The notes under the pieces were generated by a model that was given only the letters and a program-made list of their open reading frames with translations, was not told the DNA's origin and did no database searches. Shown piece by piece: positions 4,299 through 39,633 of a stretch of DNA of 64,000 nucleotides (the stretch's first letter is position 1; each line of letters starts with the position of its first letter). This DNA is from Candidatus Zhuqueibacterota bacterium. Its GTDB lineage: Bacteria > Zhuqueibacterota > Zhuqueibacteria > Thermofontimicrobiales > Thermofontimicrobiaceae. The position numbers and the translations under genes were made by a program. The stretch spans positions 52,255-116,254 of the forward strand of contig JAPDPQ010000002.1 in NCBI GenBank assembly GCA_034506395.1. Reading direction: 5' to 3'.

Positions 4299-4510
4299 TT
4301 GATATTAAATCGCCTCGGCCATGATCTCCTTTTGCGCCATCGGAACAGAAGCTTATTGGAACGACATGCCTAAAGCAAGTGTCGGGGCGATTTTGAATAC
4401 GATCTGAAATGATTTATTTCCTCCGGTCGGATATGAGACTATTCTTGCCCAGCCGGAGGAAGTTTATTTTGAGCAAGTTCCTTAGGGGAAAATTGAGAAA
4501 GGCAGAAGTA

Positions 4511-5974
4511 ATGCAAGGAGAAATGACGAATTACAAAAGGATCTTGCTGGTCAATCCAGCGATCGACAAAGAGAAGAAATATGGCAAATTGGTCAGCATG
4601 ATGTTGACTCCATCGGTGCCATTGAGCATCGTTTTTTTGGGTACTTTTTTAGAAAGCCAGGGATACGAAGTCAGGCTATTTGATGAGCAGATCGAATGGC
4701 TGGATGAGCAACGCATTCAGGCGCTGGTGAATGAGTTTCACCCTGGCGTGATCGGTTTCACTTGTACCACCCCGGGGATGGCGCGCGCCCATGAGATCGC
4801 AGCCGATATTAAAAAGGTCAATCCAGAAATCAAAGTCGTGATGGGAAACATTCATCCGACTGTCCTGCCCGAGGAGACGCTTCGGGATGTCAATGTGGAT
4901 TTAGTGGTGCGCGGTGAGGGCGAGTTTACCATGCTGGAATATTTGCAAGCATTGGAGCATAAGGGGGACATCAGCAAAATAGATGGCATCTCGTATCGAC
5001 TCAATGGAGGGTATTATCATACTGGACAACGCGCCTATGAGAAAGATCTGGATGTATTTCCACCAGTCAATTGGAAGCTGTTGACGGATTTTCACAGCAG
5101 TTATGTGATCGAATGGATTCTCACGTCACGAGGCTGTCCGTACAAGTGCGTTTTTTGCTCAGCGCGCAGCATCTCCGGGTACAAATATCGCTTTAATAGT
5201 CCGCAGCGGGTGATCCACGAAGTGGATAATGTGGTCAATAATTATGGGGCAAGATTCTTCAGCTTCGCTGATGATAACTTTGTGGTGAAAAAAGATCGAG
5301 CCCGCCAAATTTGCAACCTGCTGATCGAGCGCGGCTATCATAAATATACCAAATGGTTGTGCCAGACCCGCGCAGATGCGGTGGATCAGCCCCTGCTGGA
5401 GCTAATGCGGGAGGCCGGCTGTGAATATATCAGCTTTGGCATCGAGACAGGCACACAGCGGCTATTGGATTTGATCGGGAAAAGCTTAAAGATCGAAACA
5501 ATCGAAAAAGCAGTGAATCTGGCGCATCAAGTGGGTATCAAGACGCGGGGATCGTTTATGCTCGGGTTGCCCACAGAGACGCGTGAGGAATCGCTGGCGA
5601 CCATTGACTTTGCACTTCGGCTGCCGCTCGATATTGCTAAATTCAATCTTGCAGTGCCATATCCGGGCACCGAATTGTTGAACATGGCCATTGCAGAGGG
5701 GCTTCAGGTAACCGGCGATTGGTCGAAAATCAATACCGCGGCTGGGCTGAGCGATACGCAAGCGTTCTATATCCCCAAAGGCCGCACCATGGCCGAACTG
5801 GCCAAACTGCAGAAGATGGCCCATGCCAAATTTTATCTGCGACCAAAGCAGATCTGGCGTATCCTCAAACGTGAGAATATCGATTTCAATCTGCCAAAAA
5901 TCAGATCGCCACGTCAATTCTTCGAGCTTATGGGGGCAGCCGCCGAATTTCTGGTGCATACCATCAAAAAATAA
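4511..5974 (+). CDS. B12-binding-domain radical SAM protein (class B radical-SAM family).
   Basis: The N-terminal 'KRILLVNP…' segment is a Rossmann-like B12-binding domain. The radical-SAM cysteine triad CxxxCxxC is present ('SRGCPYKCVFCSA'), followed by a long TIM-barrel-like region. The ORF opens at 4409, but the ATGs at 4511 and 4523 (after AAGGAG) are more plausible starts. Confidence 0.75.
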   Translation: MQGEMTNYKRILLVNPAIDKEKKYGKLVSMMLTPSVPLSIVFLGTFLESQGYEVRLFDEQIEWLDEQRIQALVNEFHPGVIGFTCTTPGMARAHEIAADIKKVNPEIKVVMGNIHPTVLPEETLRDVNVDLVVRGEGEFTMLEYLQALEHKGDISKIDGISYRLNGGYYHTGQRAYEKDLDVFPPVNWKLLTDFHSSYVIEWILTSRGCPYKCVFCSARSISGYKYRFNSPQRVIHEVDNVVNNYGARFFSFADDNFVVKKDRARQICNLLIERGYHKYTKWLCQTRADAVDQPLLELMREAGCEYISFGIETGTQRLLDLIGKSLKIETIEKAVNLAHQVGIKTRGSFMLGLPTETREESLATIDFALRLPLDIAKFNLAVPYPGTELLNMAIAEGLQVTGDWSKINTAAGLSDTQAFYIPKGRTMAELAKLQKMAHAKFYLRPKQIWRILKRENIDFNLPKIRSPRQFFELMGAAAEFLVHTIKK

Positions 5975-6379: not shown

Positions 6380-9037
6380 ATGAAACGCTGCAGAGTAATT
6401 GGCATTGCTTTGAGCTGGTTGCTCAGTTGGTCGATGATGATATTCGGTCAAACGGAACCAATTGATTCAAATTCTGGGAGCATGATCCCAGTAGCATCAT
6501 TTTATGGTCGGGAATACATTGAGCGGATCGGCTACGCGGTGGCCGGAGCTGGAGATGTTAATGGGGATGGATTTGACGACTTTTTGATTGGCACCTTTCA
6601 CAACGCTGTGATGGGAGCCGACGCAGGGGCCGTTTATCTATTTTTGGGTCACCGCTATCTCCGCTGGACAATGAACGATACCGTCAATCATGCAGATGCT
6701 CGGCTGTTGGGCCAGCAAGCATATGATGCGGCTGGGTATTCGGTGGCTTGTAACGGCGACCTGAACGGCGATGGTCTGGACGATATGATCATCGGCGCTC
6801 CGGCTGGCAATGATAAGGTGCCTTATATGCCTGGACGGGTTTATATTTTGTTCGGCCGCAAAAAAGCCAATTGGGGCTATTATTTCCGCTTGTATGACAA
6901 TTGCGATGCGATTTATGAGGGCGAAGGCAATCAAGACCTCGCTGGTTTATCAGTAGCCTATATTGGCGATTTGAATGGTGATGGATATGATGATTTTTTG
7001 GTTGGTGCACCATTTCGTAATGGGAAGTATGTGGATCAGGGCCAGGTGTACCTCATTTTAGGGCGAGCCACGCCATGGCTTAAGACGGATTATTTAGCCT
7101 ACGCAGATGCGACATTTATTTACGAGGTAAGCAGTGCTAAAACTGGTTACTCAGTGGCGGGAATTGGAGATGTGAATGTCGATGGGATCCCAGATTTCGC
7201 AATAGGCGCTTATGGAGCCAGTCACGTGTTTGTCCTGTATGGACGACCCAAAGTCAATTGGGGGAAAAATTTTGATCTGGAAAATGCAGATGTGATAATC
7301 TATGGCGAGAACCGATGGTCGAAGGAAGGTGTGGGTTGGCGGGTAGCGGGGGGCAGTGATGTCAATGGCGATGGCATCTCCGATCTGTTGATCTCGGCCA
7401 CGCAAAATAGCGATCACGGAACTCGCTCTGGAATGGTCTATGTGTTGTTCGGCAAGAGAGGCGGCTGGGGCGTCTCGGAGATCTCTCTCAATAACGCCGA
7501 TGCCTCATATTATGGTGAGCAACCAGGCGACCAAGCCGGATGGGGATTGGCGATGGCCGGGGATGTCAATGGTGATGGTTTCGGCGATATCCTGGTTGGG
7601 ACTTATAAAGATGAAAATGGCCCAGTTAATGGTAAAGCCTATCTCATCAAAGGAAAAGCCTCTGGCTGGCAAAGAGATGTTTCCTTGACTACTGTGCCAG
7701 ATTTTTGTGAGCGAAGTCCTGAGGGCATTGGGTATGCGGTCGCTTCGGCCGGCGATTTTGACGCGGATGGCCTCGCCGATTATGTGATTAGCGCGCCGTT
7801 CAACAGCGACATACAAAAATGGAACGGCAAGGTATATCTGTTCACCAGCCAGGAGGTGCCCTATGAAATTTCAGGACAGGTGACCTATCATCGAACTGGC
7901 CAACCCATTCCTCAAGTGATGGTGAAATTGGATACGCTTGCTGTTGCCGCTGATACCACCGATGGACTGGGTCGCTATCAAATTTTAGTGCGCGGCAAGC
8001 ACGATCACACCGTTGCCATGGAAAAACTGATCAGAAGCGATCTGGGATCAGCCGTCAGCGCTTATGATGCGGCGTTGATCGCTCAAATGGCAGTGAAATT
8101 GTCTGTGCCCGATACCATCCATCGCGAAGCTGGTGATGTGAATAACGATGGCAAGGTCAGTATGTACGATGCCGCAAACACACTCCGCTGCGCCGTGCAA
8201 TTACCAGCATTGCCGAACACTTATGCTGGCCAATGGGTTTTTACCCCTTCCAGCATGACTTATGATTCCGTTACCCACCATTATTCAAACCAGAACTACG
8301 TTGGTTTTGTTAGAGGTGATGTGGACGGCAACTGGCGGGCGCCTGGCTCTGGGTTGGCAAAAAGCGAAGATGGTAGCACGGGGCTGCAATTTCAGGCTGT
8401 TGTCAATGGCGATGAGCTTCGGTTGCCCATAGAATTAAATTTCGATTTCTCCATGATCTCTTTCGATCTCCACATCAGCTATCCCCAAGCATTCTTAAAA
8501 TTGAAGGCGGTTGAACCTTCAACAAAGATCGCTAATTTTCAATTAGCTGTCAATTCTGAACTCAGCGGACAGGTGAAGGCGGCTGGCTTTGGCCTACAAT
8601 CTATTGTTGCCCATGGGCCTATTTTGGTTTTCGTTTTTGAAACGATCAAGCCGATCGATAACGCTTGCCAGCTTCAGATCGATCATTTTGCAGTGAATCA
8701 GCAATGTTTCGCTGCGAGGGTAAAGTTGGCGGGTGCTGAACCCTTATCTAATTTGCCGCAACGGTTCGAGCTCCTTCAAAATTATCCCAATCCCTTCAAT
8801 GGCACAACTCTCATACGATTTGCGGTTCCGCATACTGGTAAGATTCGATTGACCATTTATAATTTGCTTGGAGAAGAAGTGAATACACTGATCGATGAGA
8901 CGGTAGCGCCAGGCAAATATCATGTGAATTGGGATGGAAAAAATAGAAATGGAGCCGCTGTTGCCTCAGGAATTTACATTGCGAGAATGGACCATCCATC
9001 AGGATCGGAGCAGATTAAGCTCATCTATATGCAATAG
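6380..9037 (+). CDS. FG-GAP-repeat (integrin-alpha-like beta-propeller) T9SS cargo protein, paralog A. It has a signal peptide, about 7 FG-GAP blades, a CarboxypepD_reg-like domain, a dockerin-like double EF-hand, an internal cohesin-like module and a T9SS CTD.
   Basis: GGGGAG lies 4 nt upstream of the ATG at 6380, and the signal peptide is 'MKRCRVIGIALSWLLSWSMMIFGQ'. FG-GAP Ca-loop motifs recur ('GDVNGDGFDDFLIG', 'GDLNGDGLDDMIIGAP', 'GDVNVDGIPDFAIGA'…). The dockerin-like segment is 'SAYDAALIAQMAVKLS…GDVNNDGKVSMYDAANTLRCAVQL' (~8050-8215). The cohesin-like module 'LRLPIELNFDFSMISFDLHISYP…GQVKAAGFG…ILVFVFETIKPID' lies at ~8390-8740. The CTD is 'FELLQNYPNPFNGTTLIRFAVP…IYNLLGEEV'. Confidence 0.85.
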   Translation: MKRCRVIGIALSWLLSWSMMIFGQTEPIDSNSGSMIPVASFYGREYIERIGYAVAGAGDVNGDGFDDFLIGTFHNAVMGADAGAVYLFLGHRYLRWTMNDTVNHADARLLGQQAYDAAGYSVACNGDLNGDGLDDMIIGAPAGNDKVPYMPGRVYILFGRKKANWGYYFRLYDNCDAIYEGEGNQDLAGLSVAYIGDLNGDGYDDFLVGAPFRNGKYVDQGQVYLILGRATPWLKTDYLAYADATFIYEVSSAKTGYSVAGIGDVNVDGIPDFAIGAYGASHVFVLYGRPKVNWGKNFDLENADVIIYGENRWSKEGVGWRVAGGSDVNGDGISDLLISATQNSDHGTRSGMVYVLFGKRGGWGVSEISLNNADASYYGEQPGDQAGWGLAMAGDVNGDGFGDILVGTYKDENGPVNGKAYLIKGKASGWQRDVSLTTVPDFCERSPEGIGYAVASAGDFDADGLADYVISAPFNSDIQKWNGKVYLFTSQEVPYEISGQVTYHRTGQPIPQVMVKLDTLAVAADTTDGLGRYQILVRGKHDHTVAMEKLIRSDLGSAVSAYDAALIAQMAVKLSVPDTIHREAGDVNNDGKVSMYDAANTLRCAVQLPALPNTYAGQWVFTPSSMTYDSVTHHYSNQNYVGFVRGDVDGNWRAPGSGLAKSEDGSTGLQFQAVVNGDELRLPIELNFDFSMISFDLHISYPQAFLKLKAVEPSTKIANFQLAVNSELSGQVKAAGFGLQSIVAHGPILVFVFETIKPIDNACQLQIDHFAVNQQCFAARVKLAGAEPLSNLPQRFELLQNYPNPFNGTTLIRFAVPHTGKIRLTIYNLLGEEVNTLIDETVAPGKYHVNWDGKNRNGAAVASGIYIARMDHPSGSEQIKLIYMQ

Positions 9038-9049
9038 GGGGAGTAATTC

Positions 9050-11722
9050 ATGACTGGAAGAATTTGGTTTGAGAAGTATGTTTTGATACTTTTGATGAAC
9101 TTGATGCTGATCAAAGGCGTTGCGGGACAAAATGGAGATCAAGCGGTTTTGGGCCAGATTTATCCAGACGCAACCTTCATTTGCAAGAACGCCAACGAGC
9201 GGTGCGGCTATTCTATGGCCGGGGCTGGGGATGTCAATGGCGACGGGTTCAGCGATTTTATGGTAGCCGCATATCACAACTATCTTCACGGTTGGAATTC
9301 TGGTGGGGTGTATTTGATCACCGGCGCATTGAATCAGCGATGGGGAATGAATGTCGATATCGAAGCCGCAGCAACAGCAGTATTTCGAGGCAGCCAAGAT
9401 TACGATATGGTCGGTTATTGTGTGGCGGGCAAAGGCGATTTCAATGGCGATGGACTGAGCGATATGATTATCGGTGCGCCAGGCACCTGGGATCGAATGC
9501 CCGAAACTCCAGGATGGGCTTATCTGGTGTTTGGGAAAAAGGAAATGGATTGGGGCAAAGATTATCAATTGGAGGCCTCCGCCGATGTGAAAATCGTGGG
9601 CGAAAAGCCCCTGGATCAATTTGGCTATGCGGTCTCTTTCGTCGGTGACATCAATCATGATGGGTATGACGACATCATCTGTGGCGCACCTTATCGCAAT
9701 CAATATCAAAAATGGGATGGCAAGGCGTATTTAATTTTGGGTGCTGCCCAGGGTTGGGATGGCAATCATCTGGTGGCGAAAAAAGCCGTGGCATCTTTCG
9801 TGTTTCCAGCCGAACAAGCGTTGACCGGCTATTCGGTCGCTGGAGTGGGCGATGTGAATCAGGATGGCACACCAGATTTTGTGATTGGCGTGCCTGGAGC
9901 TAATGTCGCCTGTTTAATATTGGGTAGACCAGCCGTCGATTGGGGGCTCGATTTTGATCTGCGGAATGCTGACTCTAAATTCTGGGGCGAGGTTGATGGC
10001 GATTACGCCGGCTCATGGATCAGCGCAGCGAATGATGTTAACCATGATGGCTATCCAGATTTCATGATTTCAGCTATTCAGGCCTATTTCAATGGGGGCA
10101 AAATTTATGTGGTCTTAGGTAGAAAACGCTGGACTGAGAGCGATATCTCTTTGAAGACTGCCGACGCTTCGTTCCGAGGAGAGGACGTGGAGACGCATAC
10201 CGGCTTCTGTACCTCAGGATTGAAAGATTATGATGGTGATGGCTATGACGACCTATTAATCGGTGCTCGCTACCTTAATAGCATTGATATTCCACATGCC
10301 GGCAAAGTCTATGTGATCAAAGGTCGACCTGGTGGTTGGCAGCATGACGCCGATCTGGAAAATAGCGATTATTACTTCTGGGGGCCAGATTCCATTACGT
10401 GTGCTGGCTGGCAGGTGGCGGATGTGGGCGATGTGAATGGCGATCATGGTCATGATTTTATCGCCTCAGGACCATTTAACAGCACTGGTGCTCATTGGGG
10501 CGGAAAAATATTTTTCTTTTATGGCAAAGATATCGCTTATCATATCTCTGGAACAATTGTTTATTACTCCCATTTCCAGCCAATCTCTGATGCGAAATTG
10601 ACGGTCACTGGCAATGTGGCTGATAGCACTTTGAGCGACCGAATGGGCCGTTATTCTCTTTGGCTCAAGCCGAATGGGAATTATCGAATCGCCGCTACAA
10701 AAGCGGGTCCGATTGGGAATCAAGACTATGCGATTTCAGCCTATGACGCGGCAAGGGTAGCCAGCCATGCCATCGGAATAGATACGCTTTCAAATTGGTC
10801 CCGAAAAGCAGCCGATGTCGATCAAAATGGCGTAATTCAGATGTTCGATGCGGCGCAGATCGCCCGCTATGCTGTCGACCTTCCTGCACTGGAATCTTCT
10901 CATGTGGGCGAATTCCGTTTCGATCCAGAGAGCCGATGGTACTCCAATTTGGGACAATCCTTTCTGCAAGAAAATTTTATTGGGCTGCTATTGGGCGATG
11001 TAGATGGCAATTGGCAAACTCATACCACTATTGCAGCCAAAAATACTGGGAATTCGATATTGCCAAGTAGCATTGTCACGTTATTCAATTCGCGACCTTC
11101 GATCCCATTGACGATCAATGATTTCGCCAATGCCAGATCTGTCGATATCCAGTTCGAGTTTGATCCAACGCAACTGCAATTTCTTGAGCTTCACCGAACT
11201 GAGGTCACAAAAAATTTCTCATTGGTACTGAACGCTAATGTGCCAGGCTTGATAAAAATCGCTCTCTTTAGTGCGACTCCCGTGCACTTTCAGGGAGAGA
11301 TCGCTCGATTGCAATTTAAGCTTGTGAATTTGAATAACACTAATTTAGCCCGCCTGAAAATGACTGTAATTCGCGTCAATGATGTCCGATTCCCGCCTGA
11401 GGAGACATTAATTTTCATGGTTGACAAGAATGGCCTAAACATCGCAACAGAAGCAACATTGATCAGTCAGCCCAATCCATTTAATCCAAGCACCACTCTC
11501 ATCTTTAAAAATAATATGGCTGGTAAGGGGAAGCTGATGATCTATGATGTATTGGGAAAAGCGGTGCGCTGTTTTGATCTGGGATTTTTGCTGCCGGGCG
11601 TACATCAAGTGTTCTGGGACGGGGCGGACGACAGTGGCAACGAGCTATCCAGTGGCGTTTATTTCGCCAGATTTCAGTGCGATGCCAAGGAGAGCATAAT
11701 TAAATTGATCAAGCTAAAATAA
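9050..11722 (+). CDS. FG-GAP-repeat T9SS cargo protein, paralog B, with the same architecture as paralog A.
   Basis: It starts 12 nt after the stop of paralog A and follows GGGGGAG. The FG-GAP motifs are 'GDVNGDGFSDFMVAA', 'GDFNGDGLSDMIIGAP' and 'GDINHDGYDDIICGAP'. The dockerin-like segment is 'ISAYDAARVASHAIG…ADVDQNGVIQMFDAAQIARYAVDLP' (~10735-10890). The cohesin-like module 'SVDIQFEFDPTQLQFLELHRTEV…GLIKIALFS…GEIARLQFKLVNLN' lies at ~11060-11440. The CTD is 'ISQPNPFNPSTTLIF…IYDVLGKAV…SGVYFARF'. Confidence 0.85.
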   Translation: MTGRIWFEKYVLILLMNLMLIKGVAGQNGDQAVLGQIYPDATFICKNANERCGYSMAGAGDVNGDGFSDFMVAAYHNYLHGWNSGGVYLITGALNQRWGMNVDIEAAATAVFRGSQDYDMVGYCVAGKGDFNGDGLSDMIIGAPGTWDRMPETPGWAYLVFGKKEMDWGKDYQLEASADVKIVGEKPLDQFGYAVSFVGDINHDGYDDIICGAPYRNQYQKWDGKAYLILGAAQGWDGNHLVAKKAVASFVFPAEQALTGYSVAGVGDVNQDGTPDFVIGVPGANVACLILGRPAVDWGLDFDLRNADSKFWGEVDGDYAGSWISAANDVNHDGYPDFMISAIQAYFNGGKIYVVLGRKRWTESDISLKTADASFRGEDVETHTGFCTSGLKDYDGDGYDDLLIGARYLNSIDIPHAGKVYVIKGRPGGWQHDADLENSDYYFWGPDSITCAGWQVADVGDVNGDHGHDFIASGPFNSTGAHWGGKIFFFYGKDIAYHISGTIVYYSHFQPISDAKLTVTGNVADSTLSDRMGRYSLWLKPNGNYRIAATKAGPIGNQDYAISAYDAARVASHAIGIDTLSNWSRKAADVDQNGVIQMFDAAQIARYAVDLPALESSHVGEFRFDPESRWYSNLGQSFLQENFIGLLLGDVDGNWQTHTTIAAKNTGNSILPSSIVTLFNSRPSIPLTINDFANARSVDIQFEFDPTQLQFLELHRTEVTKNFSLVLNANVPGLIKIALFSATPVHFQGEIARLQFKLVNLNNTNLARLKMTVIRVNDVRFPPEETLIFMVDKNGLNIATEATLISQPNPFNPSTTLIFKNNMAGKGKLMIYDVLGKAVRCFDLGFLLPGVHQVFWDGADDSGNELSSGVYFARFQCDAKESIIKLIKLK

Positions 11723-11734
11723 CGAGGAGCAATC

Positions 11735-12523
11735 ATGCAAAGGTGGAAGCTTGGGCGTATTTTCGTGCTCAGCGCCATCATCATTGCATGGGGGATCAAT
11801 GATGGATTCGCGCAAGTCAAAGTTACAATCGCCGATGTTGCAGCGACGCCTAAAAGCACGGCCAGCGTGGCAATGTTGGTGAGCGATTTATCTAATTATG
11901 AGATCATTTCCTATCAATTTGAAATTTTGTATGATTCGCTGGTTGCTCGGGCGAAAGGGGTGGCAGTTGAAGGCACGATAACCGCGCCATGGGGCAGCCC
12001 CGCGGTCAATCTGGATAGCGCTGGCAGAATGCTCGTTGGCAATTTCGGGACGCGGCCGCTTTCGCCAGGCGATACACTGCTTAAACTCATCTTTGCGGTC
12101 GTCGGATTACCGGGCGATACGAGTACGATCATCCTAAAGGATTTTCAGTTCAACAATGGCAATCCCATGGCCCTATCGAAAAACGGGCGACTAAAAGTTC
12201 TATCGCCCAGCGGTGTGGCCCAGCCTTCGCCGATCGTACCGCGAAAAGCAATCTATCTCTCTAACTCGCCAGAGCCATTTTGCGACCGCACCACGATTCA
12301 AATGATTCAGCCTTCTCCAGGAGCAATCGATATTGAGATCTACAATGTACTTGGACAGCGGATCAAACGATTAGGAAACTTTGATTCAAATCGATCCTTG
12401 TTGGAGATCGACTGGGACGCGACCGACCAGCAAGGTGGACCAGTGCCGGCTGGCATCTATTTCTGTATGGTGAGACAATTCAATCGGATTCTGGCGGTTG
12501 ATCGGATGATATTCATCAAGTGA
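11735..12523 (+). CDS. Small secreted protein (262 aa) consisting of a signal peptide, a single cohesin-like domain and a T9SS CTD.
   Basis: GAGGAG lies 5 nt upstream of the ATG. The domain 'VKVTIADVAATPKSTASVAMLVSDLSNYEIISYQFEILYDSLVARAKGVAVEGTITAPWGSPAVNLDSAGRMLVGNFGTRPLSPGDTLLKLIFAVVGLPGDTSTIILKDFQFNNGNPMALSKNGRLKV' fits the cohesin beta-sandwich pattern (V.V.I..V.A..G..V.VPV….FxL.YD..VL…G….W…N…G.I..G…GxGxL..I.F.V.G..G..S.L….FN.G.P…NG.V). The CTD is 'PEPFCDRTTIQM…IEIYNVLGQRI…AGIYFCMV'. The gene is tightly coupled to both neighbours. Confidence 0.75.
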   Translation: MQRWKLGRIFVLSAIIIAWGINDGFAQVKVTIADVAATPKSTASVAMLVSDLSNYEIISYQFEILYDSLVARAKGVAVEGTITAPWGSPAVNLDSAGRMLVGNFGTRPLSPGDTLLKLIFAVVGLPGDTSTIILKDFQFNNGNPMALSKNGRLKVLSPSGVAQPSPIVPRKAIYLSNSPEPFCDRTTIQMIQPSPGAIDIEIYNVLGQRIKRLGNFDSNRSLLEIDWDATDQQGGPVPAGIYFCMVRQFNRILAVDRMIFIK

Positions 12524-12534
12524 TTGAGGAGATT

Positions 12535-14970
12535 ATGGTGCAATTACGATTTCTGATATTTGGTTTTATTTTGTCCATGATGGCAGCGATGACGCAGGCT
12601 CAGGTGCAAGTCACCTTGCCAGACACCACGGCAAATTGGAATAGCTCGGTGACCATCTCCATCCGCGTTAGCGATGTCACTGCTTATGGCATTTATTCAT
12701 ATGAGTTCATTTTAAATTATAATGCTCTTGTCTTAAAGCCTACGGCGGTCGATCATAATAATACGCTTGCTTCGAATTGGCAAAAACCAGAGGTGAATGA
12801 TTCAACCAAAGGTGTTTTGGTTATTGGTGGCTATGGAGCGAATAAGTTAGTGGGTAATGGCCGATTGGTCAATATGACATTTCAGGTGATCGGTCAACCC
12901 GATCAGGTGAGTGATTTGACATTTAGCTATTTTGCCTTCAATGATGGTAGGCCAACGCCAACATTGTCCAATGGTCGGGTGAAAGTCATCACCAATTTAG
13001 TACCGGTAACGATAACAACCAACGTACTATCTGGCACCGAGGTCGTGGTGGACGGGAGCTCGCATGCTGCGCCCTATAATACCTATTGGGAGAAAGGCAG
13101 CAGCCATCAGATCTCTGCGCCGGATCTGCAGACCATTGGAGATAGGCGATATAATTATCAGTCATGGAGTGATCAGGGGGCGCAAACTCATACCGTCTCA
13201 GTAACCCAACCAACTACATTTACCGCAAATTATAGCACCCAGTATCTGCTGACGATCCAGACAGCCCACGGCACGCCGCAGGGGAGCGGTTGGTATAATG
13301 CAGGTGCTGTGGCCAGTTTTTCCATCGATTCATCTCTTATTGAAAATGGGGATACAAAATATTTGTTTGTTTCTTGGACTGGCAGTGGCTCAGGTTGTTA
13401 TATTGGGCCGTTGCGCAAGGCATCCGTGGTCATGAATAACCCAATTGTCCAAACAGCGAATTGGTCAACTCAATATTACGTGGATATTCGCACTGATGTT
13501 GGCAAATCTTATGGAAGCGGATGGTATTCTCCAGGAGCGCTAGTGGCATTTGGCCTCGATTCCTCAACCATTATTCGATCGGATGCTCATTATCGATTCC
13601 AATCCTGGTCTGGAACTGGGCCCAATAGCTACTCCGGGACGAACCTTAGCGCCACAATCACTGTGGCTGGCCCAGTAGTCGAACAAGCAATTTGGGATAG
13701 CGAATTTTTATTGGTCACTGGTTCGCTTCCAGAGGGGGTGCTTCAAGTGCCTGGCGCTGGCTGGTACGCGAAAGGACAATCTTTTACGACTATTAAAGCC
13801 CCAGATCCATTGATTGTGAATCAGGTCAGTTATCGATTCAAGGGATGGAAAGTCAATGGGGCGATCGTCCCAGGCAATCCAGTGACGGTGGTGATGGACG
13901 GACCCAAAACAGTCATCGCTGATTACAGCAACGATATTACCGTGGTGGTAACCACCAATGTCGGATCAGGCACAAAGGTGATTGTTGATGGCGAAGAAAA
14001 AAATGCTCCATATACAGCCCAATGGATCGCAGGGACGCGACATGGCATTGGTGTCGTCAACGTTCAAAATGGTGCGCCAGGAGTCCGATATAGTTACGTC
14101 CGCTGGAGTCATGGCGGAAATCAGACCCAGGAAGTTGTCCCAACGATGAACACCACTTATATAGCTGAATTGGCGACCCAATATTATCTTGAAGTGACAG
14201 ATGAACCATCTGGGATCGCGAATCCAAAAGGCACTGGTTGGTACTTGGCTGGGCAGTTGGTCATCTTGGACAGTTTGATTCAAAATAAAATTGCGGGCCA
14301 AACCAGTTATCGTTTTATTAAATGGCAAATTGATGGAGCTGATAGCCTAAAAAAATCTGTGCGGCTAATGATGAGTCAGCCGCGTCAGGCGGTGGCAGTT
14401 TATCAGAAAGGCTTTTTTATCTCAGGTAATATCACTTTTGTGGGCAGCAATCCCAAGCCATTGACCTTGGAGGTTATTGGCGCAGAAAACTTCTCAGTGC
14501 GATCGGATAGCAATGGGTATTATGTGATCGCTGGACTGGTCAATGGGGATTATACAATTCGCCCTCGTCACCCTGCCTTCAACATTGAACCGAGCCAGCG
14601 GTCTTATAAAGTCAATCGCAATTTTGAAAATGAATACTATTTTGCCTTTTATATAACTGCGATTTCATCGCCAGAAGGGCCAACTCAGTCTCCAGATCGC
14701 TTTGAATTGTATCAAAATTATCCTAATCCAGTGGCAGATGAAACCGTGATCGAATATGCTGTAAAAGGATATGTTCCGATTCGAGTCGCAGTTTATAACA
14801 TCCTGGGTCAGGAGATCGCCCAACTTGTGGCAAATCGTCAGCCTGCTGGGCGCTATCGGGTGCAGTGGAATCGAACCGACAATCATGGGGCACGCGTGCC
14901 GCCGGGCATGTATTTCTATCGCATCGAAGCCCCCAATTTTGTCCAGATTCGAAAAATGATCGTGCTTTAG
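12535..14970 (+). CDS. T9SS cargo protein with an N-terminal cohesin-like domain, about six tandem ~100-aa Listeria/InlB-B-type bacterial repeat domains, a CarboxypepD_reg-like domain and a T9SS CTD.
   Basis: The ORF overlaps the previous stop (GTG at 12520). The ATG at 12535 follows GAGGAG, and the signal peptide is 'MVQLRFLIFGFILSMMAAMTQAQV'. The cohesin-like segment is 'VQVTLPDTTANWNSSVTISIRVSDVTAYGIYSYEFILNYNALVLKP…GRLVNMTFQVIGQPDQVSDLTFSYFAFNDGRPTPTLSNGRVKV'. Repeats recur of the form 'TQYYL.I…G.GSGWY..G..V.F..D……Y.F.SWSG.G'. 'GNITFVGSNPKPLTLEVIG…SDSNGYYVIAGLVNGDYTIRP' is CarbopepD_reg-like. The CTD is 'FELYQNYPNPVADETVIEY…VYNILGQEI'. Confidence 0.8.
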   Translation: MVQLRFLIFGFILSMMAAMTQAQVQVTLPDTTANWNSSVTISIRVSDVTAYGIYSYEFILNYNALVLKPTAVDHNNTLASNWQKPEVNDSTKGVLVIGGYGANKLVGNGRLVNMTFQVIGQPDQVSDLTFSYFAFNDGRPTPTLSNGRVKVITNLVPVTITTNVLSGTEVVVDGSSHAAPYNTYWEKGSSHQISAPDLQTIGDRRYNYQSWSDQGAQTHTVSVTQPTTFTANYSTQYLLTIQTAHGTPQGSGWYNAGAVASFSIDSSLIENGDTKYLFVSWTGSGSGCYIGPLRKASVVMNNPIVQTANWSTQYYVDIRTDVGKSYGSGWYSPGALVAFGLDSSTIIRSDAHYRFQSWSGTGPNSYSGTNLSATITVAGPVVEQAIWDSEFLLVTGSLPEGVLQVPGAGWYAKGQSFTTIKAPDPLIVNQVSYRFKGWKVNGAIVPGNPVTVVMDGPKTVIADYSNDITVVVTTNVGSGTKVIVDGEEKNAPYTAQWIAGTRHGIGVVNVQNGAPGVRYSYVRWSHGGNQTQEVVPTMNTTYIAELATQYYLEVTDEPSGIANPKGTGWYLAGQLVILDSLIQNKIAGQTSYRFIKWQIDGADSLKKSVRLMMSQPRQAVAVYQKGFFISGNITFVGSNPKPLTLEVIGAENFSVRSDSNGYYVIAGLVNGDYTIRPRHPAFNIEPSQRSYKVNRNFENEYYFAFYITAISSPEGPTQSPDRFELYQNYPNPVADETVIEYAVKGYVPIRVAVYNILGQEIAQLVANRQPAGRYRVQWNRTDNHGARVPPGMYFYRIEAPNFVQIRKMIVL

Positions 14971-15311
14971 CTGAAAGCTCGAAACCACAGGCGGTTGATA
15001 TTGGGCCTGATCTTCATTCCGTGGAAGCGCTCGTGAATGATATTTGGATTGCTCCATGTTATAGATCATGATGAGGCAAGAATTTTTAAATGAGGGGATG
15101 CTCAATTTTCCTTCCGCAAGTTTTGAACATGATCTACGGGAGCAGCGGCTGAGATTTAGGGGATTTTGATTTGTATTAAAATTGTAGCGTTCATTGTTGC
15201 TGCCTTCTATTATTCTACTATGATGAAATTGAGTTAAAAAAAGCTGTTCAAATTCTCTTTGGTTTCACCAGGGAGAATAAATAAATCGGTGTGAGATGGG
15301 GGAGCTCATCC

Positions 15312-17987
15312 ATGTGGCACTGCGATGTTAGCAGAAGATTTGCAATCACCATTTTCGGGATGCAGTTGGTATTAGGAATCACAAATGGATATGGCCAAAC
15401 TGAAATTGCAAGTCCAATGACCAAGTTGACGCCTTCTGCGGCATTTTTGGGTGAATTTTATTATGAACGGGTGGGATATTACATGGAAAATGCCGGGGAT
15501 GTCAACGGAGATGGGTGCGAGGACTTCCTGATCGGTACGTTTCATAATCGGGAAAATGGATATGATGCAGGAGCGGCTTACCTGATCCTGGGTAATAGAA
15601 ATAATATCTGGGGGATGAAGCAGCGATTGAGGACCGCAGACGCTCGTTTTTTGGGGAAACATGAGTATGATGCGTTCGGATATTATGTTTCAGGCAATGG
15701 CGATGCGAATGGCGATGGCTATGATGATTTTTTGATTGGCGCGCCGGCTGGTAATGAATTGGGAGGGCCCAACCCCGGGTATGCGTTTCTGTTTTTGGGA
15801 AAAGCGACAGCGGATTGGGGTTTCGATTGCGTGGCGCGGGATGCCGCTGATGCCTACTGGATGGGAAGCCATGCTTACGATCATGTGGGCCAGGCTGTTG
15901 CCATGCTCGGTGACATCAATGGTGATGGTTTTGATGATTTTCTCATCGGCGCGCCATTGAACGATGACGGTTCGGAAGAGAGCGGGAAGGCCTATTTATT
16001 TTTAGGCAAGGCCTCTGGTTGGCGACGCGGCGCTGATATTGAAGCTGCTGCAAATGCCAGTTTCATCTGTCAATATTATAAAGCGTGGGCTGGCTATACA
16101 GTTTCTTCCGCTGGGGACATGAATGGGGATGGAATGGCTGATTTTTTAATTGGTGCGCCGTTTCTCGATCGATGGGGAGGCCGAGTTTACCTGTTTTTTG
16201 GCCGAAAAAAGGCCGATTGGGGTGCCAATTTCGATCTTGACCAAGCGGATGTAATTTTCCAAGGTGAAAACTACGGCGATAAAGCTGGCTGGAGCTTGGC
16301 TTCCGCTGGGGACGTCAATGGGGATGGCCTGAGCGATATCCTGATTGGAGCCTACGGAAATGATCACCAAGCAGCCCAAGCCGGAAAGGTTTATTTGATT
16401 CTGGGCCGAAAATCGAATTGGCAGCGGATCGTTCAACTGAACGAGGCAGAGGCCTCCTGGTATGGGGAAAGAATAGATGATCAAGCTGGCTGGAGTGCGG
16501 CAAGCGTCCCAGATCTAAATTATGATGGATGCGATGAAATATTGATCGGCGCGTGGCATAATGATCAAATCGGAGACAACTGCGGCAAAGCTTATTTGAT
16601 CTATGGTAAGCCGAGCGGTTGGCAAACGGATCAAAGTTTGGCTGGAGTGACAGATTATTTTGTTGGTGAATATGATGGCGATTACGCTGGCTATTGTGTG
16701 ACTGGCAACGATGCCAATGGCGATGGGCTGGGAGACATCTGGATTTCTGCAGCCTATAATAGCGATAGCCAGGAGCATGCGGGAAAGGTGTATTTGTTTT
16801 TAAGCGAACGCGATCGTTACGACATCAGTGGGCAAATCCGTTATTATAGCAACGGTGAACCAGTACCAGGGGTACAAATCAATATTTTGGGAGGCACCCG
16901 AAGCTGGCTCGTAAGTGATACCAATGGACTGTTTAGCCAGATATTGCCCCACCACATAGATTATTATTTCGTCCCATGCAAAGCATCTTACAGCGATTTG
17001 AATAGTGAGACCATTATCGCCTATGATGCTGCATTGACGCTGCAAGTTGCTGTCGAAAAATTGCCTTTGGATAGTTTGCAATGGCTGGCTGCCAATGCCG
17101 ATCAAGACAGCTTCATCACCGCGTATGATGCAGCATTGATCGCGCGATACGTCGTTGGCTATCGAGATTCGAACTCGGCGGTTGGAAAATGGGTCTTTTC
17201 CCCGACACAACGCACCATTCACGATCTTGCCCAGGAACACCATCGATTAGATTTTTCCGCCATTGTGGTTGGCAATGTGCATGGCGGTTGGCAGCCATTC
17301 ATGGGGGACTCCCTGCCGCGAACTTTGGCGAGCCTCCCATTGCCCCAAGCACAGCGCCAGGGCAAACGGGTAATCATCCCGTTCGAGATTGAACAGCCGA
17401 TGGAGTTGTCTTCGCTAGAAATTCAATTAGCCTTGCCATCCGATCGGTTTTCCGTAGTAGATGTTCAGCTTGGTTCTATGTTAAGTCGTTTTCAATGGAT
17501 TTGCAATCAACAAAAAAGCCAAATCAAATTAGTGCTATATTCTGCTCATCAAACCACAGCAATCGGTGAGCTGGTCAGTTTGGTACTTGAACCGGACAAC
17601 GATAGCCCTGATTTCGATCATGTTGAATTGATAAAGTATCAAATCAATGACTTCCCTTCGGTTCGAGGCATGATTGAGCTTAGATCCCCGATTGAGCCCA
17701 TGTCACCAAAAAATTTCGCTCTGCACCAGAACTACCCTAATCCATTCAATTCTGAAACAGCGATTCGACTATCTGTCTCTCGGAATTGTAAGATTCATTT
17801 GGCCATCTATAATTTGCGGGGCGATTTGGTGCGGCTACTGGAAGATAAGTCCCTAGCGCCAGGCAATTACCAGTTTGTCTGGAATGGAAGGGATCAAAAT
17901 CAGATTCCACTTGCTTCTGGAGTCTATCTATGCCGGGCAATTGCAGGACAAGAACTACAGACGGTGAAACTCATAATGATTAAATAG
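15312..17987 (+). CDS. FG-GAP-repeat T9SS cargo protein, paralog C (FG-GAP blades, dockerin-like segment, internal cohesin-like module, T9SS CTD).
   Basis: GGGGGAG lies 7 nt upstream of the ATG at 15312, and the signal peptide is 'MWHCDVSRRFAITIFGMQLVLGITNGYGQ'. The FG-GAP motifs are 'GDVNGDGCEDFLIG', 'GDANGDGYDDFLIGAP', 'GDINGDGFDDFLIGAP' and 'GDMNGDGMADFLIGAP'. The dockerin-like segment is 'IAYDAALTLQVAVEKLP…NADQDSFITAYDAALIARYVVGY' (~17010-17165). The cohesin-like module lies at ~17370-17690. The CTD is 'FALHQNYPNPFNSETAIRLSV…IYNLRGDLV…SGVYLCRA'. Confidence 0.85.
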   Translation: MWHCDVSRRFAITIFGMQLVLGITNGYGQTEIASPMTKLTPSAAFLGEFYYERVGYYMENAGDVNGDGCEDFLIGTFHNRENGYDAGAAYLILGNRNNIWGMKQRLRTADARFLGKHEYDAFGYYVSGNGDANGDGYDDFLIGAPAGNELGGPNPGYAFLFLGKATADWGFDCVARDAADAYWMGSHAYDHVGQAVAMLGDINGDGFDDFLIGAPLNDDGSEESGKAYLFLGKASGWRRGADIEAAANASFICQYYKAWAGYTVSSAGDMNGDGMADFLIGAPFLDRWGGRVYLFFGRKKADWGANFDLDQADVIFQGENYGDKAGWSLASAGDVNGDGLSDILIGAYGNDHQAAQAGKVYLILGRKSNWQRIVQLNEAEASWYGERIDDQAGWSAASVPDLNYDGCDEILIGAWHNDQIGDNCGKAYLIYGKPSGWQTDQSLAGVTDYFVGEYDGDYAGYCVTGNDANGDGLGDIWISAAYNSDSQEHAGKVYLFLSERDRYDISGQIRYYSNGEPVPGVQINILGGTRSWLVSDTNGLFSQILPHHIDYYFVPCKASYSDLNSETIIAYDAALTLQVAVEKLPLDSLQWLAANADQDSFITAYDAALIARYVVGYRDSNSAVGKWVFSPTQRTIHDLAQEHHRLDFSAIVVGNVHGGWQPFMGDSLPRTLASLPLPQAQRQGKRVIIPFEIEQPMELSSLEIQLALPSDRFSVVDVQLGSMLSRFQWICNQQKSQIKLVLYSAHQTTAIGELVSLVLEPDNDSPDFDHVELIKYQINDFPSVRGMIELRSPIEPMSPKNFALHQNYPNPFNSETAIRLSVSRNCKIHLAIYNLRGDLVRLLEDKSLAPGNYQFVWNGRDQNQIPLASGVYLCRAIAGQELQTVKLIMIK

Positions 17988-20977: not shown

Positions 20978-21276
20978 TTCACCAAATATAAAAGGGATTG
21001 AACCGCCGATTCATTAGTGGCTGCTGTACCTCATAAAAATATCAAATATGGCAATTTTCTGCTTGCCTTTTAATGAAAAAATGCTATTTTCTAAATGAAA
21101 TCACTATCGATGTTACTGCTCCGAGAAATTGTATCCTTCTTGAAATTGTTTGGACCAACTGCTGTATCATCCAGTAACTGGGGATAAAAATAATCCCATG
21201 AATCCCAAAACGAAATATGGCAGCTTTATTAATCACCCCAACGCTGCCATTCAATTTTAACTGGGAGGGCCAATCC

Positions 21277-23877: not shown

Positions 23878-24185
23878 CAGTGAAAAGGCTGGCTCGAAAT
23901 CTATTTCAAATAAATTGGACATCAATCCAGCCGTGCGAAGATATTTTTTCCAGCCAACACTTGGCTGAATTTCTCATCCATTTAGTTTGAGCGTGTGCCT
24001 GCTTTTGTTCTGTCTAAATTAATCGTTAAAAATTAAAATTGATTTTGAGGTTGTGGTGCGTTGAAACATTCGCTTGGTCGGAAAAGATGCAACCTCGGTT
24101 TTGAAACGGCTATAATTCATCATGATGGAGCTACATTTCCACATTTTCGCATGATGGTCCTCGGGCCAAACCTATTTTCCTCGCT

Positions 24186-24656: not shown

Positions 24657-24722
24657 CGAATCTCCTCCTAATTCATTCCAATCCAATTCCGAACTCATTT
24701 TCAAAAACGAATAATGGTTTTA

Positions 24723-29426: not shown

Positions 29427-29510
29427 AACTATTAAAATGAACCAAGATGATTTTAAAGAAAAAACATTATATCGCTATAATGATCCTGCGCACAGATCCA
29501 TTTGCCAAGA

Positions 29511-39460: not shown

Positions 39461-39633
39461 AATATCCTTTTCAGTTTTAAATGATAAAGCGTTAAATCGC
39501 TCTGACGCCACAATTGCGGAAGAAAAAATTAATGACGATTTGCAAAGTTGAGCTTTGGGATTCGAGTTTGTTTATCCAATTTGCTCATTTCAACGTGCTT
39601 CAATTTCACCGTTTTTATCCATGTCAGAGCGAG

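What the first reader, a model, noticed from the sequence alone, without database searches (positions are those of the whole stretch)
6380..17987. Triplicated FG-GAP propeller proteins that carry both a dockerin-like and a cohesin-like module
The three paralogs (6380..9037, 9050..11722, 15312..17987) share one architecture. In order, this is a 7-bladed FG-GAP propeller, a CarboxypepD_reg domain, a dockerin-like segment, a cohesin-like module and the CTD. They have diverged considerably, so this is an old tandem duplication rather than a recent one. Proteins holding both halves of the cohesin–dockerin interaction pair could chain to one another or to the four N-terminal-cohesin proteins. This would allow polymeric or combinatorial surface complexes. 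Integrin-like FG-GAP propellers are themselves ligand-binding heads, which suggests an adhesion or substrate-capture role.
Basis: partly seen in the sequence, partly recalled or inferred. Interest (0 to 1): 0.6.

Follow-up and report, generated by a model that had tools for sequence, protein, structure and literature searches.

The report
Surface proteins with self-matched dockerin–cohesin module
Three old paralogous surface proteins of an uncultured KSB1 bacterium combine an integrin-like propeller head with a dockerin and a cohesin, and these two modules co-evolve as a matched pair inside a portable unit that many other secreted proteins of this lineage also carry.

Summary
The ORFs 6380..9037, 9050..11722 and 15312..17987 encode paralogs of 885–891 aa that share 34–39% identity. 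Each has a signal peptide, a 7-blade FG-GAP propeller, a short CarboxypepD_reg-like sandwich, a dockerin, a conserved ~50-aa linker, a cohesin and a T9SS type A sorting domain.

The pre-CTD module is a true cohesin by three tests:
- its family profile hits the neighbours' N-terminal cohesins;
- 29 of 40 family members hit Pfam Cohesin;

The dockerin has the three-helix layout. Its second Ca loop is canonical and its first is degenerate.

There are two new points. First, dockerin–linker–cohesin is one portable supermodule. It occurs in more than 1,100 representative protein clusters, under many different heads, usually just before the CTD. Second, covariation links the canonical recognition face of the dockerin to strands β3 and β6 of the cohesin that follows it in the same chain. 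That signal is stronger than for an upstream cohesin in the same protein.

So the pair is self-cognate. It is most likely docked in cis, or else swapped head-to-tail between molecules. Binding to the four neighbouring orphan cohesins is untested. I rate this a new variant of a known kind.

The parts
6380..9037 (+). Paralog P1 (885 aa). Layout: signal peptide, 7-blade FG-GAP propeller, short CarboxypepD_reg-like sandwich, dockerin, linker, cohesin, T9SS CTD.
   Evidence: Full-length AF2 model has pLDDT 90.4. A 100%-identical partial KSB1 MAG protein exists, P0001.
6494..7843 (+). P1 propeller, residues ~39-488. It has seven FG-GAP blades, each with a DxNxDGxxD Ca-type loop.
   Evidence: PF01839 with 7 stretches, E 2.4e-45. 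Best PDB sequence hits are integrin alpha-V and alpha-IIb, ~1e-15. Foldseek top 50 for the full model are all integrin alpha chains, E down to 7e-27.
7859..8023 (+). P1 short CarboxypepD_reg-like beta-sandwich, residues 494-548.
   Evidence: Only a weak Pfam hit, 15.4 bits. The model has five strands here. Homologs carry a precomputed PF13620 annotation.
8033..8206 (+). P1 dockerin, residues ~552-609. Loop 1 is degenerate (RSDLGSAVSAYD). Loop 2 is canonical (DVNNDGKVSMYD).
   Evidence: Dockerin_1 scores 22.9/25.3 bits. Helices lie at 561-571, 582-585 and 595-605.
8207..8350 (+). P1 conserved ordered linker, residues ~610-657, running G-x-W-x-F-x-P ... N-Y-x-G-x-x-R-G-D-V-D-G-N-W. It matches no Pfam family.
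   Evidence: Four positions are nearly invariant: W74, G101, V103 and W107 of the construct. pLDDT is 82-94. The linker covaries with the dockerin and with the cohesin.
8375..8737 (+). P1 internal cohesin, residues ~666-786.
8780..9037 (+). P1 T9SS type A C-terminal sorting domain.
   Evidence: TIGR04183 scores 30.1 bits against a cutoff of 23. FlgD_ig scores 31.1.
9050..11722 (+). Paralog P2 (890 aa), same architecture. Approximate module coordinates: dockerin 10709..10888, linker 10889..11029, cohesin 11072..11413, CTD 11471..11722.
   Evidence: Dockerin_1 26.8 bits, Cohesin 20.2 bits, TIGR04183 24.0 bits. P0114 is 100% identical.
15312..17987 (+). Paralog P3 (891 aa), same architecture. Approximate module coordinates: dockerin 16992..17168, linker 17169..17300, cohesin 17343..17681, CTD 17733..17987.
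   Evidence: Family HMM scores: dockerin 72.9 bits, cohesin 88.5 bits. TIGR04183 26.0 bits. P0073 is 100% identical.
11735..12523 (+). Orphan-cohesin protein of 262 aa: N-terminal cohesin plus T9SS CTD only.
12520..14970 (+). Orphan-cohesin protein of 816 aa: N-terminal cohesin, a middle region, T9SS CTD. Its start overlaps the previous gene by 4 nt.
   Evidence: Cohesin 46.9 bits. TIGR04183 41 bits.
18097..20850 (+). Orphan-cohesin protein of 917 aa: N-terminal cohesin, Flg_new_2 / CarboxypepD_reg / Big_7-like region, T9SS CTD.
   Evidence: Cohesin 45.3 bits. TIGR04183 42.9 bits.
21217..23829 (+). Orphan-cohesin protein of 870 aa: N-terminal cohesin, PKD, propeller-like region, T9SS CTD.
   Evidence: Cohesin 31.2 bits. 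TIGR04183 32.6 bits.
57..4298 (+). C-terminal 1413 aa of a giant Big_1/Invasin_D3-repeat T9SS protein, cut by the window start. A counterpart lies upstream of the FG-GAP genes in all four related loci examined.
   Evidence: Orthologs are 2666-2866 aa and carry Lipase_GDSL.

Best explanation
P1, P2 and P3 are type IX secretion substrates of a candidate division KSB1 bacterium. Each probably displays an integrin-alpha-like, Ca-binding, seven-blade propeller on the cell surface, presumably as a ligand-binding head. The head sits on a base made of a short beta-sandwich and a conserved dockerin-linker-cohesin supermodule, which lies directly before the T9SS sorting domain.

Within that supermodule the dockerin and the following cohesin are a cognate, co-evolving pair. 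Helices 1 and 3 of the dockerin contact strands beta3 and beta6 on the classical dockerin-binding sheet of the cohesin. The most likely state is a dockerin docked in cis on its own cohesin, clasped by the conserved linker. This would give a compact, Ca-stabilised stalk base. Because the covalent linker runs in parallel with the bond, the complex could also act as a reversible, force-bearing clasp.

The same pair could open and swap between molecules to tether copies head-to-tail.

Shown here: the identities and order of the domains; the portability of the supermodule; its position next to the CTD; the covariation; the conserved gene neighbourhood.

Inferred: surface anchoring by T9SS; cis rather than trans docking; any mechanical role; the ligand of the head.
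For: Domain identities:
- The family profile of the internal module hits the four N-terminal cohesins of the neighbouring genes at 25-45 bits.
- 38 of 40 family members hit Pfam Dockerin_1, and 29 of 40 hit Cohesin, best E 1.7e-16.
- A profile search of PDB returns only cohesins and dockerins. The best is 2xdh, the A. fulgidus cohesin, at 1.1e-6.
- The AF2 model of P1 residues 546-800 has pLDDT 88.4 and pTM 0.84, with three helices and a beta-sandwich.
- TIGR04183 is above its cutoff in all seven locus proteins tested.
- The propeller matches integrin alpha chains.

Supermodule:
- An exhaustive profile search finds 1,146 representative clusters at E<=1e-30. All 256 profile positions typically match in one stretch that ends ~85 aa before the C-terminus. 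Host proteins range from 337 to 5,614 aa.
- Heads differ: none, Sde0182-like, PKD, Flg_new_2, apiosidase-like, and GDSL lipase.
- Tandem arrays [Doc-link-Coh]x3-CTD exist.
- The linker is conserved and predicted to be ordered.

Covariation, by mean-field DCA on 255 instances:
- The top Doc-Coh couplings are 17-191, 58-193, 21-149 and 24-193, scoring 2.43 to 1.79. They are as strong as the best intra-domain pairs. Five shuffles gave maxima of 1.06-1.34.
- The dockerin positions are segment positions 10, 14, 17, 18 and 21 on one face of helix 1, and 17, 20 and 21 on helix 3.
- The cohesin positions lie on two strands that DCA itself predicts to be adjacent.
- Residue sizes compensate: Ala pairs with Phe/Tyr, and Leu pairs with Ala.
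- Internal control: in 64 units with an extra upstream cohesin in the same protein, coupling is stronger to the downstream cohesin. For 21-149 the z-scores are 7.4 against 0.6, and for 58-193 they are 17.9 against 8.2.

Synteny: FG-GAP Doc-Coh genes sit next to orphan-cohesin CTD genes and giant GDSL/Big_1 CTD genes in four other genomes.
Against: - The pTM of 0.84 is indirect evidence.
- DCA used only about 219 effective sequences for 256 columns.
- With a control that keeps phylogeny (the CTD), the margin is moderate: top Doc-Coh 1.59 against Coh-CTD 1.20 and Doc-CTD 0.95.
- Covariation cannot separate cis docking from homotypic trans docking.
- A permanently cis-occupied dockerin leaves the four syntenic orphan cohesins without a partner inside the window.
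- Upstream cohesins still track the dockerin class at column 193, z 8-10. This may mean the dockerin also binds other cohesins.
- The first Ca loop is degenerate.
- The three window cohesins do not reach the Pfam gathering score on their own.
- No T9SS machinery gene lies in the window.
Confidence: 0.55

Rival explanations
1. Head-to-tail daisy chains. The dockerin of one molecule binds the internal cohesin of another copy of the same protein or of another protein carrying the cassette. Surface-anchored polymers or a mixed protein coat would result.
For: The covariation fits trans docking as well as cis docking. Many different secreted proteins carry the same cassette. Proteins with one dockerin and two or more cohesins of the same column-193 class exist, which would allow branching. 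Tandem [Doc-link-Coh]x3 arrays also exist.
Against: The linker is conserved, ordered and covaries with both modules. AF2 predicts a single-chain arrangement with pTM 0.84. Classical inter-molecular Doc-Coh systems use variable flexible linkers (my own knowledge). Nothing here shows oligomers.
Confidence: 0.25
2. Hetero-assembly with the neighbours. The dockerins of P1-P3 plug into the N-terminal cohesins of the four adjacent CTD proteins, and the internal cohesins receive other dockerins. This would give a combinatorial, cellulosome-like surface complex.
For: FG-GAP Doc-Coh genes and at least one orphan N-terminal-cohesin CTD gene are adjacent in all five genomes examined. The genes look operonic, with 12-nt gaps and one 4-nt overlap. 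Orphan cohesins keep an S-Y-E/Q/M motif on beta3, close to the internal S-F/V/L-D/E. Upstream cohesins track the dockerin class at column 193.
Against: Coupling is clearly stronger to the chain's own downstream cohesin. Three of the four orphan cohesins have Gly at column 191. In the family, Gly there goes with Ser/Thr/Met at dockerin position 10, whereas P1-P3 have Ala. The window holds 7 cohesins for only 3 dockerins. No dockerin-bearing enzymes are present in the window.
Confidence: 0.15
3. Vestigial modules. The dockerin and cohesin are only structural spacers that no longer bind anything. The proteins are simple T9SS-anchored FG-GAP adhesins.
For: The first Ca loop is degenerate across the family. 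The window copies score weakly or not at all against Pfam Cohesin.
Against: The recognition-face positions are conserved and co-vary with size compensation. The second Ca loop is canonical family-wide: D1 95%, D/N3 89%, D/N5 97%, D12 100%. The module order and linker are maintained in more than 1,000 clusters.
Confidence: 0.05

Closest known systems
Adaptor and anchoring scaffoldins of clostridial cellulosomes (for example ScaB-type adaptors carrying cohesins plus a dockerin; PMC4959524, PMC4217186)
   Same: One polypeptide carries both a cohesin and a dockerin. The modules belong to the same Pfam families, PF00963 and PF00404. The system is attached to the cell surface.
   Different: Here there is one dockerin and one cohesin in a fixed order, joined by a conserved ordered linker. 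The two co-evolve with each other instead of with modules on other proteins. The cargo is an integrin-like propeller, not CAZymes. Anchoring is through a T9SS CTD, not SLH domains or sortase. The organism is an FCB-group KSB1 bacterium.
Non-cellulosomal cohesin/dockerin proteins of archaea (Archaeoglobus fulgidus cohesin 2xdh; ANME proteins with one dockerin and up to five cohesins, PMC9012536)
   Same: Cohesin and dockerin occur outside cellulose degradation and sometimes in the same protein. 2xdh is the best PDB sequence-profile match to the internal cohesin.
   Different: No conserved Doc-linker-Coh supermodule, T9SS CTD or FG-GAP head has been described there. The partner relationships differ.
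Predicted T9SS-CTD-anchored cellulosome-like system of Cloacimonadota 'Ca. Stygibacter' (PMC8542988)
   Same: An FCB-group bacterium with cohesin and dockerin proteins and a C-terminal T9SS-type CTD proposed as the surface attachment.
   Different: That system is a classical design: a 3,755-aa multi-cohesin scaffoldin plus enzymes bearing a C-terminal dockerin. It is not a self-paired Doc-Coh unit inside each cargo protein.
Integrin alpha subunit ectodomain
   Same: Seven-blade FG-GAP propeller with Ca loops followed by beta-sandwich 'leg' domains. Integrin alpha chains are the best sequence and fold matches in PDB.
   Different: All seven blades carry a Ca-type loop. There is no beta subunit, no transmembrane segment, and no sign of an I-domain. 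The legs are a CarboxypepD_reg-like domain, a dockerin, a cohesin and a CTD.
Intramolecular clasp of the R. flavefaciens ScaA dockerin (PMC3821032), and type II/III X-module-dockerin units
   Same: Extra sequence packs against the dockerin and stabilises it. Here the conserved linker covaries with the dockerin.
   Different: In those cases the clasp lies within the dockerin or involves an X-module, and the cohesin partner is on another protein. Here the linker leads directly into the cognate cohesin.

Membership tests
Dockerin (Pfam PF00404, type I-like) | Score at or above the Pfam gathering threshold (22.9 bits) | tested here: met
   P1 scores 22.9 bits (25.3 as a fragment) and P2 scores 26.8. 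P3 has no Pfam hit but scores 72.9 bits against the family dockerin HMM. 38 of 40 family members hit PF00404.
Dockerin (Pfam PF00404, type I-like) | Two duplicated ~22-residue segments, each a 12-residue Ca-binding loop (ligands at positions 1, 3, 5, 9, 12) followed by a helix | tested here: inconclusive
   Segment 2 is canonical in P1-P3 and family-wide: D1 95%, D/N3 89%, D/N5 97%, D12 100%. Segment 1 keeps I/V8, S/T9, D12 and the helix, but positions 1, 3 and 5 are degenerate (G/D/N, D/H, G/N/D). A single Ca site is therefore likely.
Dockerin (Pfam PF00404, type I-like) | Three-helix fold, with helices 1 and 3 antiparallel | tested here: met
   DSSP on the AF2 models gives helices at 561-571, 582-585 and 595-605. 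The DCA helix1-helix3 pairs (23-57, 24-51, 17-58) fit antiparallel packing. Profile hits to solved dockerins include 4uyp_B at 3.4e-5.
Dockerin (Pfam PF00404, type I-like) | Ca-dependent binding to a cohesin | not testable with these tools
   There is only covariation with the adjacent cohesin.
Cohesin (Pfam PF00963) | Score at or above the Pfam gathering threshold (24.1 bits) | tested here: not met
   The window copies do not reach it: P2 scores 20.2 bits and P1 and P3 have no hit. At family level, 29 of 40 members hit at E<=0.01, best 1.7e-16. The family profile also hits the neighbours' bona fide cohesins at 25-45 bits.
Cohesin (Pfam PF00963) | Nine-strand jelly-roll beta-sandwich of the cohesin type | tested here: met
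Cohesin (Pfam PF00963) | Binds a dockerin on the 8-3-6-5 sheet | tested here: inconclusive
   The coupled cohesin columns 149-152 and 191-193 lie on two adjacent strands. Columns 150/152 align by motif with Asn37/Asp39 of C. thermocellum Coh2. That alignment is my own, and the contact residues come from my knowledge of 1OHZ. No coordinates were inspected.
T9SS type A cargo (TIGR04183 C-terminal sorting domain) | C-terminal ~80-aa sorting domain above the NCBIfam cutoff (23 bits), plus an N-terminal signal peptide | tested here: met
   TIGR04183 scores 30.1, 24.0 and 26.0 bits for P1-P3, and 24-43 bits for the four neighbours. Hydrophobic N-termini are visible, and the model has a helix at 2-21.
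T9SS type A cargo (TIGR04183 C-terminal sorting domain) | The genome encodes T9SS machinery (PorU/V, SprA and others), and the cargo is exported and anchored | not tested
   No machinery gene is in the window. The rest of the genome was not available.
FG-GAP / integrin-alpha-type propeller (PF01839) | Seven FG-GAP repeats forming a seven-blade propeller with Ca-binding loops | tested here: met
   PF01839 E 1e-37 to 1e-45 with 6-7 stretches. Seven DxNxDGxxD loops are present. The model has pLDDT above 90 across residues 39-488. Integrin alpha chains are the top hits.
Cellulosome | A multi-cohesin scaffoldin that recruits dockerin-bearing carbohydrate-active enzymes | tested here: not met
   Each protein has one cohesin. 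The only three dockerins in the 64-kb window are on the FG-GAP proteins themselves, and no dockerin-bearing enzyme is present. Multi-cohesin proteins do exist elsewhere in related metagenomes.

The most novel reading that the evidence does not exclude
Dockerin-linker-cohesin is a previously undescribed, self-docking 'clasp' supermodule that KSB1-type bacteria place between many different T9SS cargo domains and the surface anchor. Cohesin-dockerin, known as an inter-protein glue, would here work as an intramolecular, Ca-dependent, force-bearing latch with hidden length. Alternatively it would be a domain-swap unit that knits many different cargo proteins into a surface lattice.
Probability: 0.4. 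Interest if true: 0.75.

Novelty: new variant of a known kind. Interest (0 to 1): 0.62.

Why it matters
Cohesin-dockerin is the textbook inter-protein connector of cellulosomes and is widely used in protein engineering. This locus shows the pair fused in a fixed order with a conserved linker. The two modules co-evolve with each other, and the unit is reused under many different heads next to a type IX secretion anchor, in a phylum with no cultured model organism.

If the pair docks in cis, it is a natural single-chain Coh-Doc clasp. That would be directly testable by structure determination and single-molecule force spectroscopy, and potentially useful as a mechanical or switchable module. If it swaps in trans, it describes a new way to build a heterogeneous protein coat on the cell surface of a diderm bacterium.

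Either way it corrects the default reading that 'dockerin plus cohesin means a cellulosome-like complex' for MAG annotation in FCB-group phyla.

Tried and rejected
- Word-index homolog searches with the Doc-Coh fragment and with its alignment returned nothing useful. They missed even known family members. The exhaustive profile search was needed.
The afdb50 fold library was not installed. Taxonomic spread beyond KSB1/Zhuqueibacterota, and the reproducibility of the inter-domain geometry in AFDB models, could therefore not be checked.
- Model coordinates are not exposed, so the cis interface could not be read. I substituted DCA.
- I looked for a small ORF between the radical SAM gene and P1 as a possible RiPP precursor. 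No convincing candidate was found.
- 'Generic Ig/FN3 instead of cohesin' is rejected.
- 'Cellulosome' is rejected as a classification.
- 'Recent tandem duplication' is rejected.
- Literature searches for FG-GAP+dockerin+cohesin, KSB1+T9SS and Latescibacteria+dockerin+cohesin found nothing. The KSB1+cohesin+dockerin search listed no paper that mentions KSB1. Peer et al. 2009 is not held in the library.


Full report
**1. Observation**

Three long ORFs lie on the + strand at 6380..9037 (P1, 885 aa), 9050..11722 (P2, 890 aa) and 15312..17987 (P3, 891 aa). They align end to end at 37%, 39% and 34% identity, and their DNA is no longer alignable.

A search with P1 returned more than 100 full-length relatives of about 885 aa. 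Every source name given was candidate division KSB1, 'Ca. Zhuqueibacterota' or simply 'bacterium'. P0001, P0114 and P0073 are 100% identical to P1, P2 and P3. Each paralog has its own orthologs at 50-78% identity in other genomes, while the paralogs differ from each other at the 34-39% level. The triplication is therefore old.

**2. Domains**

*Propeller.* Pfam finds 6-7 FG-GAP repeats, E 1e-37 to 1e-45. Each of the seven blades carries a DxNxDGxxD loop. The best solved relatives, by sequence and by fold, are integrin alpha chains.

*Sandwich.* A short five-strand sandwich at residues 494-548 matches CarboxypepD_reg only below threshold.

*Dockerin.* It reaches the Pfam threshold in P1 and P2 but not in P3. 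A family HMM scores all three at 73-87 bits, and 38 of 40 family members hit PF00404. Both AlphaFold2 models show the three dockerin helices.
- Loop 2 is canonical in the window (DVNNDGKVSMYD, DVDQNGVIQMFD, NADQDSFITAYD) and family-wide: D1 95%, D/N3 89%, D/N5 97%, D12 100%.
- Loop 1 is degenerate at positions 1, 3 and 5, although its helix is fully conserved.

*Cohesin.* On its own the pre-CTD module is only a sub-threshold Pfam hit in P2, 20.2 against 24.1 bits. Four lines of evidence show it is a cohesin:
- A profile of this module from about 100 homologs hits precisely the N-terminal cohesins of the four neighbouring genes, at 25-45 bits. Three of those four pass the Pfam threshold themselves.
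- 29 of 40 family members hit PF00963, best E 1.7e-16.
- The profile finds only cohesins and dockerins in PDB. The best match is the non-cellulosomal A. fulgidus cohesin 2xdh.

*Sorting domain.* The C-terminal ~85 aa reach the TIGR04183 cutoff for the T9SS type A sorting domain in all three paralogs and in the four neighbours.

**3. Context**

The window contains exactly three dockerins, all in P1-P3. It contains seven cohesins, three internal and four N-terminal 'orphans'. The genes are tightly packed, with 12-nt gaps and one 4-nt overlap.

The neighbourhood is conserved:
- A genome with 76%-identical orthologs has the identical gene order: giant Big_1/GDSL protein, B12-radical SAM, P1, P2, 263-aa cohesin protein, 811-aa cohesin protein, P3, 918-aa cohesin protein.
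- A Zhuqueibacterota-labelled genome has two FG-GAP genes followed by four orphan-cohesin genes.
- Two distant KSB1 genomes keep a minimal version: GDSL giants, two FG-GAP Doc-Coh genes and one orphan-cohesin gene.

The rest of the window encodes housekeeping functions.

**4. The supermodule**

The ~50 residues between dockerin and cohesin are not a floppy linker. They contain nearly invariant residues (W, G, V, W in GxWxFxP ... GDVDxxW). They are predicted to be ordered, with pLDDT 82-94. They match no Pfam family.

An exhaustive profile search of 1.84 billion representative proteins found 27,530 hits at E<=1e-3, 7,000 at 1e-10 and 1,146 at 1e-30. In the best hits all 256 profile positions match in one stretch that typically ends ~85 aa before the C-terminus. 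The host proteins are 337 to 5,614 aa long.

Sampled heads are diverse: none, Sde0182-like, FG-GAP_3+PKD, Flg_new_2+PKD, and apiosidase-like+FG-GAP_3+UnbV_ASPIC. In the syntenic loci a GDSL lipase also carries the cassette.

Among the 138 best representatives the architectures are:
- 71 are Doc-link-Coh-CTD.
- 32 add one upstream cohesin.
- A few have [Doc-link-Coh]x2-3-CTD.
- A few are 8-10-cohesin scaffoldin-like proteins with one dockerin and a CTD.

All named cluster members are KSB1.

**5. Who binds whom**

The method behaves sensibly. It recovers antiparallel helix1-helix3 pairs in the dockerin and an antiparallel strand ladder in the cohesin.

Four of the eleven strongest long-range couplings are between dockerin and cohesin: 17-191, 58-193, 21-149 and 24-193, scoring 2.43 to 1.79. 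Five shuffles of the cohesin half gave maxima of 1.06-1.34. Further pairs are 25-152, 28-138 and 61/62-152.

The positions make geometric sense:
- The dockerin columns correspond to segment-1 positions 10, 14, 17, 18 and 21, which form one helical face.
- They also correspond to segment-2 positions 17, 20 and 21.
- From my knowledge of type I complexes such as 1OHZ, these are the classical recognition positions.
- The cohesin columns lie on two adjacent strands. By motif alignment, columns 150/152 correspond to Asn37/Asp39 on beta3 of C. thermocellum Coh2. That alignment and the contact residues are my own reading and knowledge.

The residues compensate in size. Ala at columns 24/58 pairs with Phe/Tyr at 193, and Leu pairs with Ala. 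Ala at column 17 pairs with Ala at 191, and Ser/Thr/Met pairs with Gly.

Two controls keep phylogeny:
- With the CTD included, the top Doc-Coh coupling (1.59) exceeds Doc-CTD (0.95) and Coh-CTD (1.20) only moderately.
- In 64 units that also have an upstream cohesin in the same protein, the dockerin is coupled more strongly to its downstream cohesin. The z-scores are 7.4 against 0.6 for 21-149, 17.9 against 8.2 for 58-193, and 5.8 against 2.7 for 17-191.

The linker covaries with the dockerin (43-101, 14-100, 24-105) and with the cohesin (105-230). The two-module construct has pTM 0.84.

**6. Interpretation**

The best-supported reading is that the dockerin and the following cohesin are a cognate pair inside one supermodule. 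Most likely they are docked in cis and clasped by the linker. This would form a compact, Ca-stabilised base between the integrin-like head and the T9SS anchor (confidence about 0.55).

Geometry suggests a mechanical role, though this is only inference. Force applied to the head enters at the dockerin N-terminus and leaves at the cohesin C-terminus. The covalent linker would keep the protein intact if the bond opens.

The main rivals are:
- Homotypic head-to-tail swapping, which the covariation cannot distinguish from cis docking (0.25).
- Docking onto the syntenic orphan cohesins (0.15). Conserved neighbourhood favours this. The stronger coupling to the chain's own cohesin argues against it, as does the Gly191/Ala17 mismatch.
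- Vestigial, non-binding modules (0.05).

These readings are not mutually exclusive, because a cis clasp could exchange with other cohesins. What binds the four orphan cohesins remains unexplained.

**7. Comparison and novelty**

Proteins carrying both a cohesin and a dockerin are known. Examples are cellulosomal adaptor scaffoldins (PMC4959524, PMC4217186), archaeal non-cellulosomal proteins (PMC9012536) and a predicted T9SS-CTD-anchored scaffoldin in Cloacimonadota (PMC8542988).

I found no description of three features seen here:
- the fixed Doc-linker-Coh order with a conserved linker;
- its mutual co-evolution;
- its use as a cassette next to the T9SS CTD under many heads.

The locus is not a cellulosome. 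It has no multi-cohesin scaffoldin and no dockerin-bearing enzymes. I rate it a new variant of a known kind, with interest 0.62. The proteins themselves are already deposited as MAG proteins with generic names such as 'FG-GAP repeat' and 'dockerin type I domain-containing'.

Noticed in passing
window 4409..5974 (+): A B12-binding radical SAM gene sits directly upstream of the FG-GAP genes here and in two related genomes (L001, L002), but not in the two distant loci. It reaches no NCBIfam equivalog cutoff; the best is HpnJ-like at 224 bits against 578. No small ORF that could be a peptide substrate was found in the 400-nt gap before P1.
   Followed up: partly
window 57..4298 (+), cut by the window start: This is the C-terminal 1413 aa of a giant Big_1/Invasin_D3-repeat T9SS protein. 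Its orthologs are 2666-2866 aa with an N-terminal GDSL/SGNH lipase domain, and they lie upstream of the FG-GAP genes in all four related loci.
   Followed up: partly
L003 3579..7214 and L004 6345..9944: In distant KSB1 genomes a second GDSL lipase of ~1190 aa in the same locus carries the same dockerin-cohesin-CTD cassette as the FG-GAP proteins.
   Followed up: partly
protein P0216 (2232 aa, metagenome): It has 21 repeats at a period of about 80 aa that match only positions ~77-101 of the supermodule linker. This piece of the linker may therefore be a repeat element in its own right.
   Followed up: no
proteins P0148 (5614 aa), P0236 (2739 aa), P0250 (4351 aa): These are scaffoldin-like proteins with 8-10 cohesins of this family and a T9SS CTD. 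P0148 and P0250 also carry one dockerin; none was detected in P0236. Classical multi-cohesin designs therefore coexist with the single-pair cassette in related organisms.
   Followed up: no
window 11735..12523, 12520..14970, 18097..20850 (N-terminal cohesins): Three of the four orphan cohesins have Gly at profile column 191, while P1-P3 dockerins have Ala at the coupled column 17. In the family, Gly191 goes with Ser/Thr/Met17. This hints that the orphan cohesins prefer dockerins other than those of P1-P3.
   Followed up: partly
window 12520..14970 and 21217..23829: The 816-aa orphan-cohesin protein has a weak GH43-like stretch (18 bits, residues 193-310). The 870-aa protein has a PKD domain and a propeller-like region with weak SGL/Reg_prop hits. 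Their middle regions are otherwise uncharacterised.
   Followed up: no
window 24000..64000: The remainder of the window is ordinary chromosomal housekeeping: CrtC-like lipocalin protein, MacB-type ABC exporter, GatD, Lhr helicase, HisRS, SerRS, CcmF, histidine/aromatic ammonia-lyase and glycosyltransferases. No T9SS machinery gene is present.
   Followed up: yes
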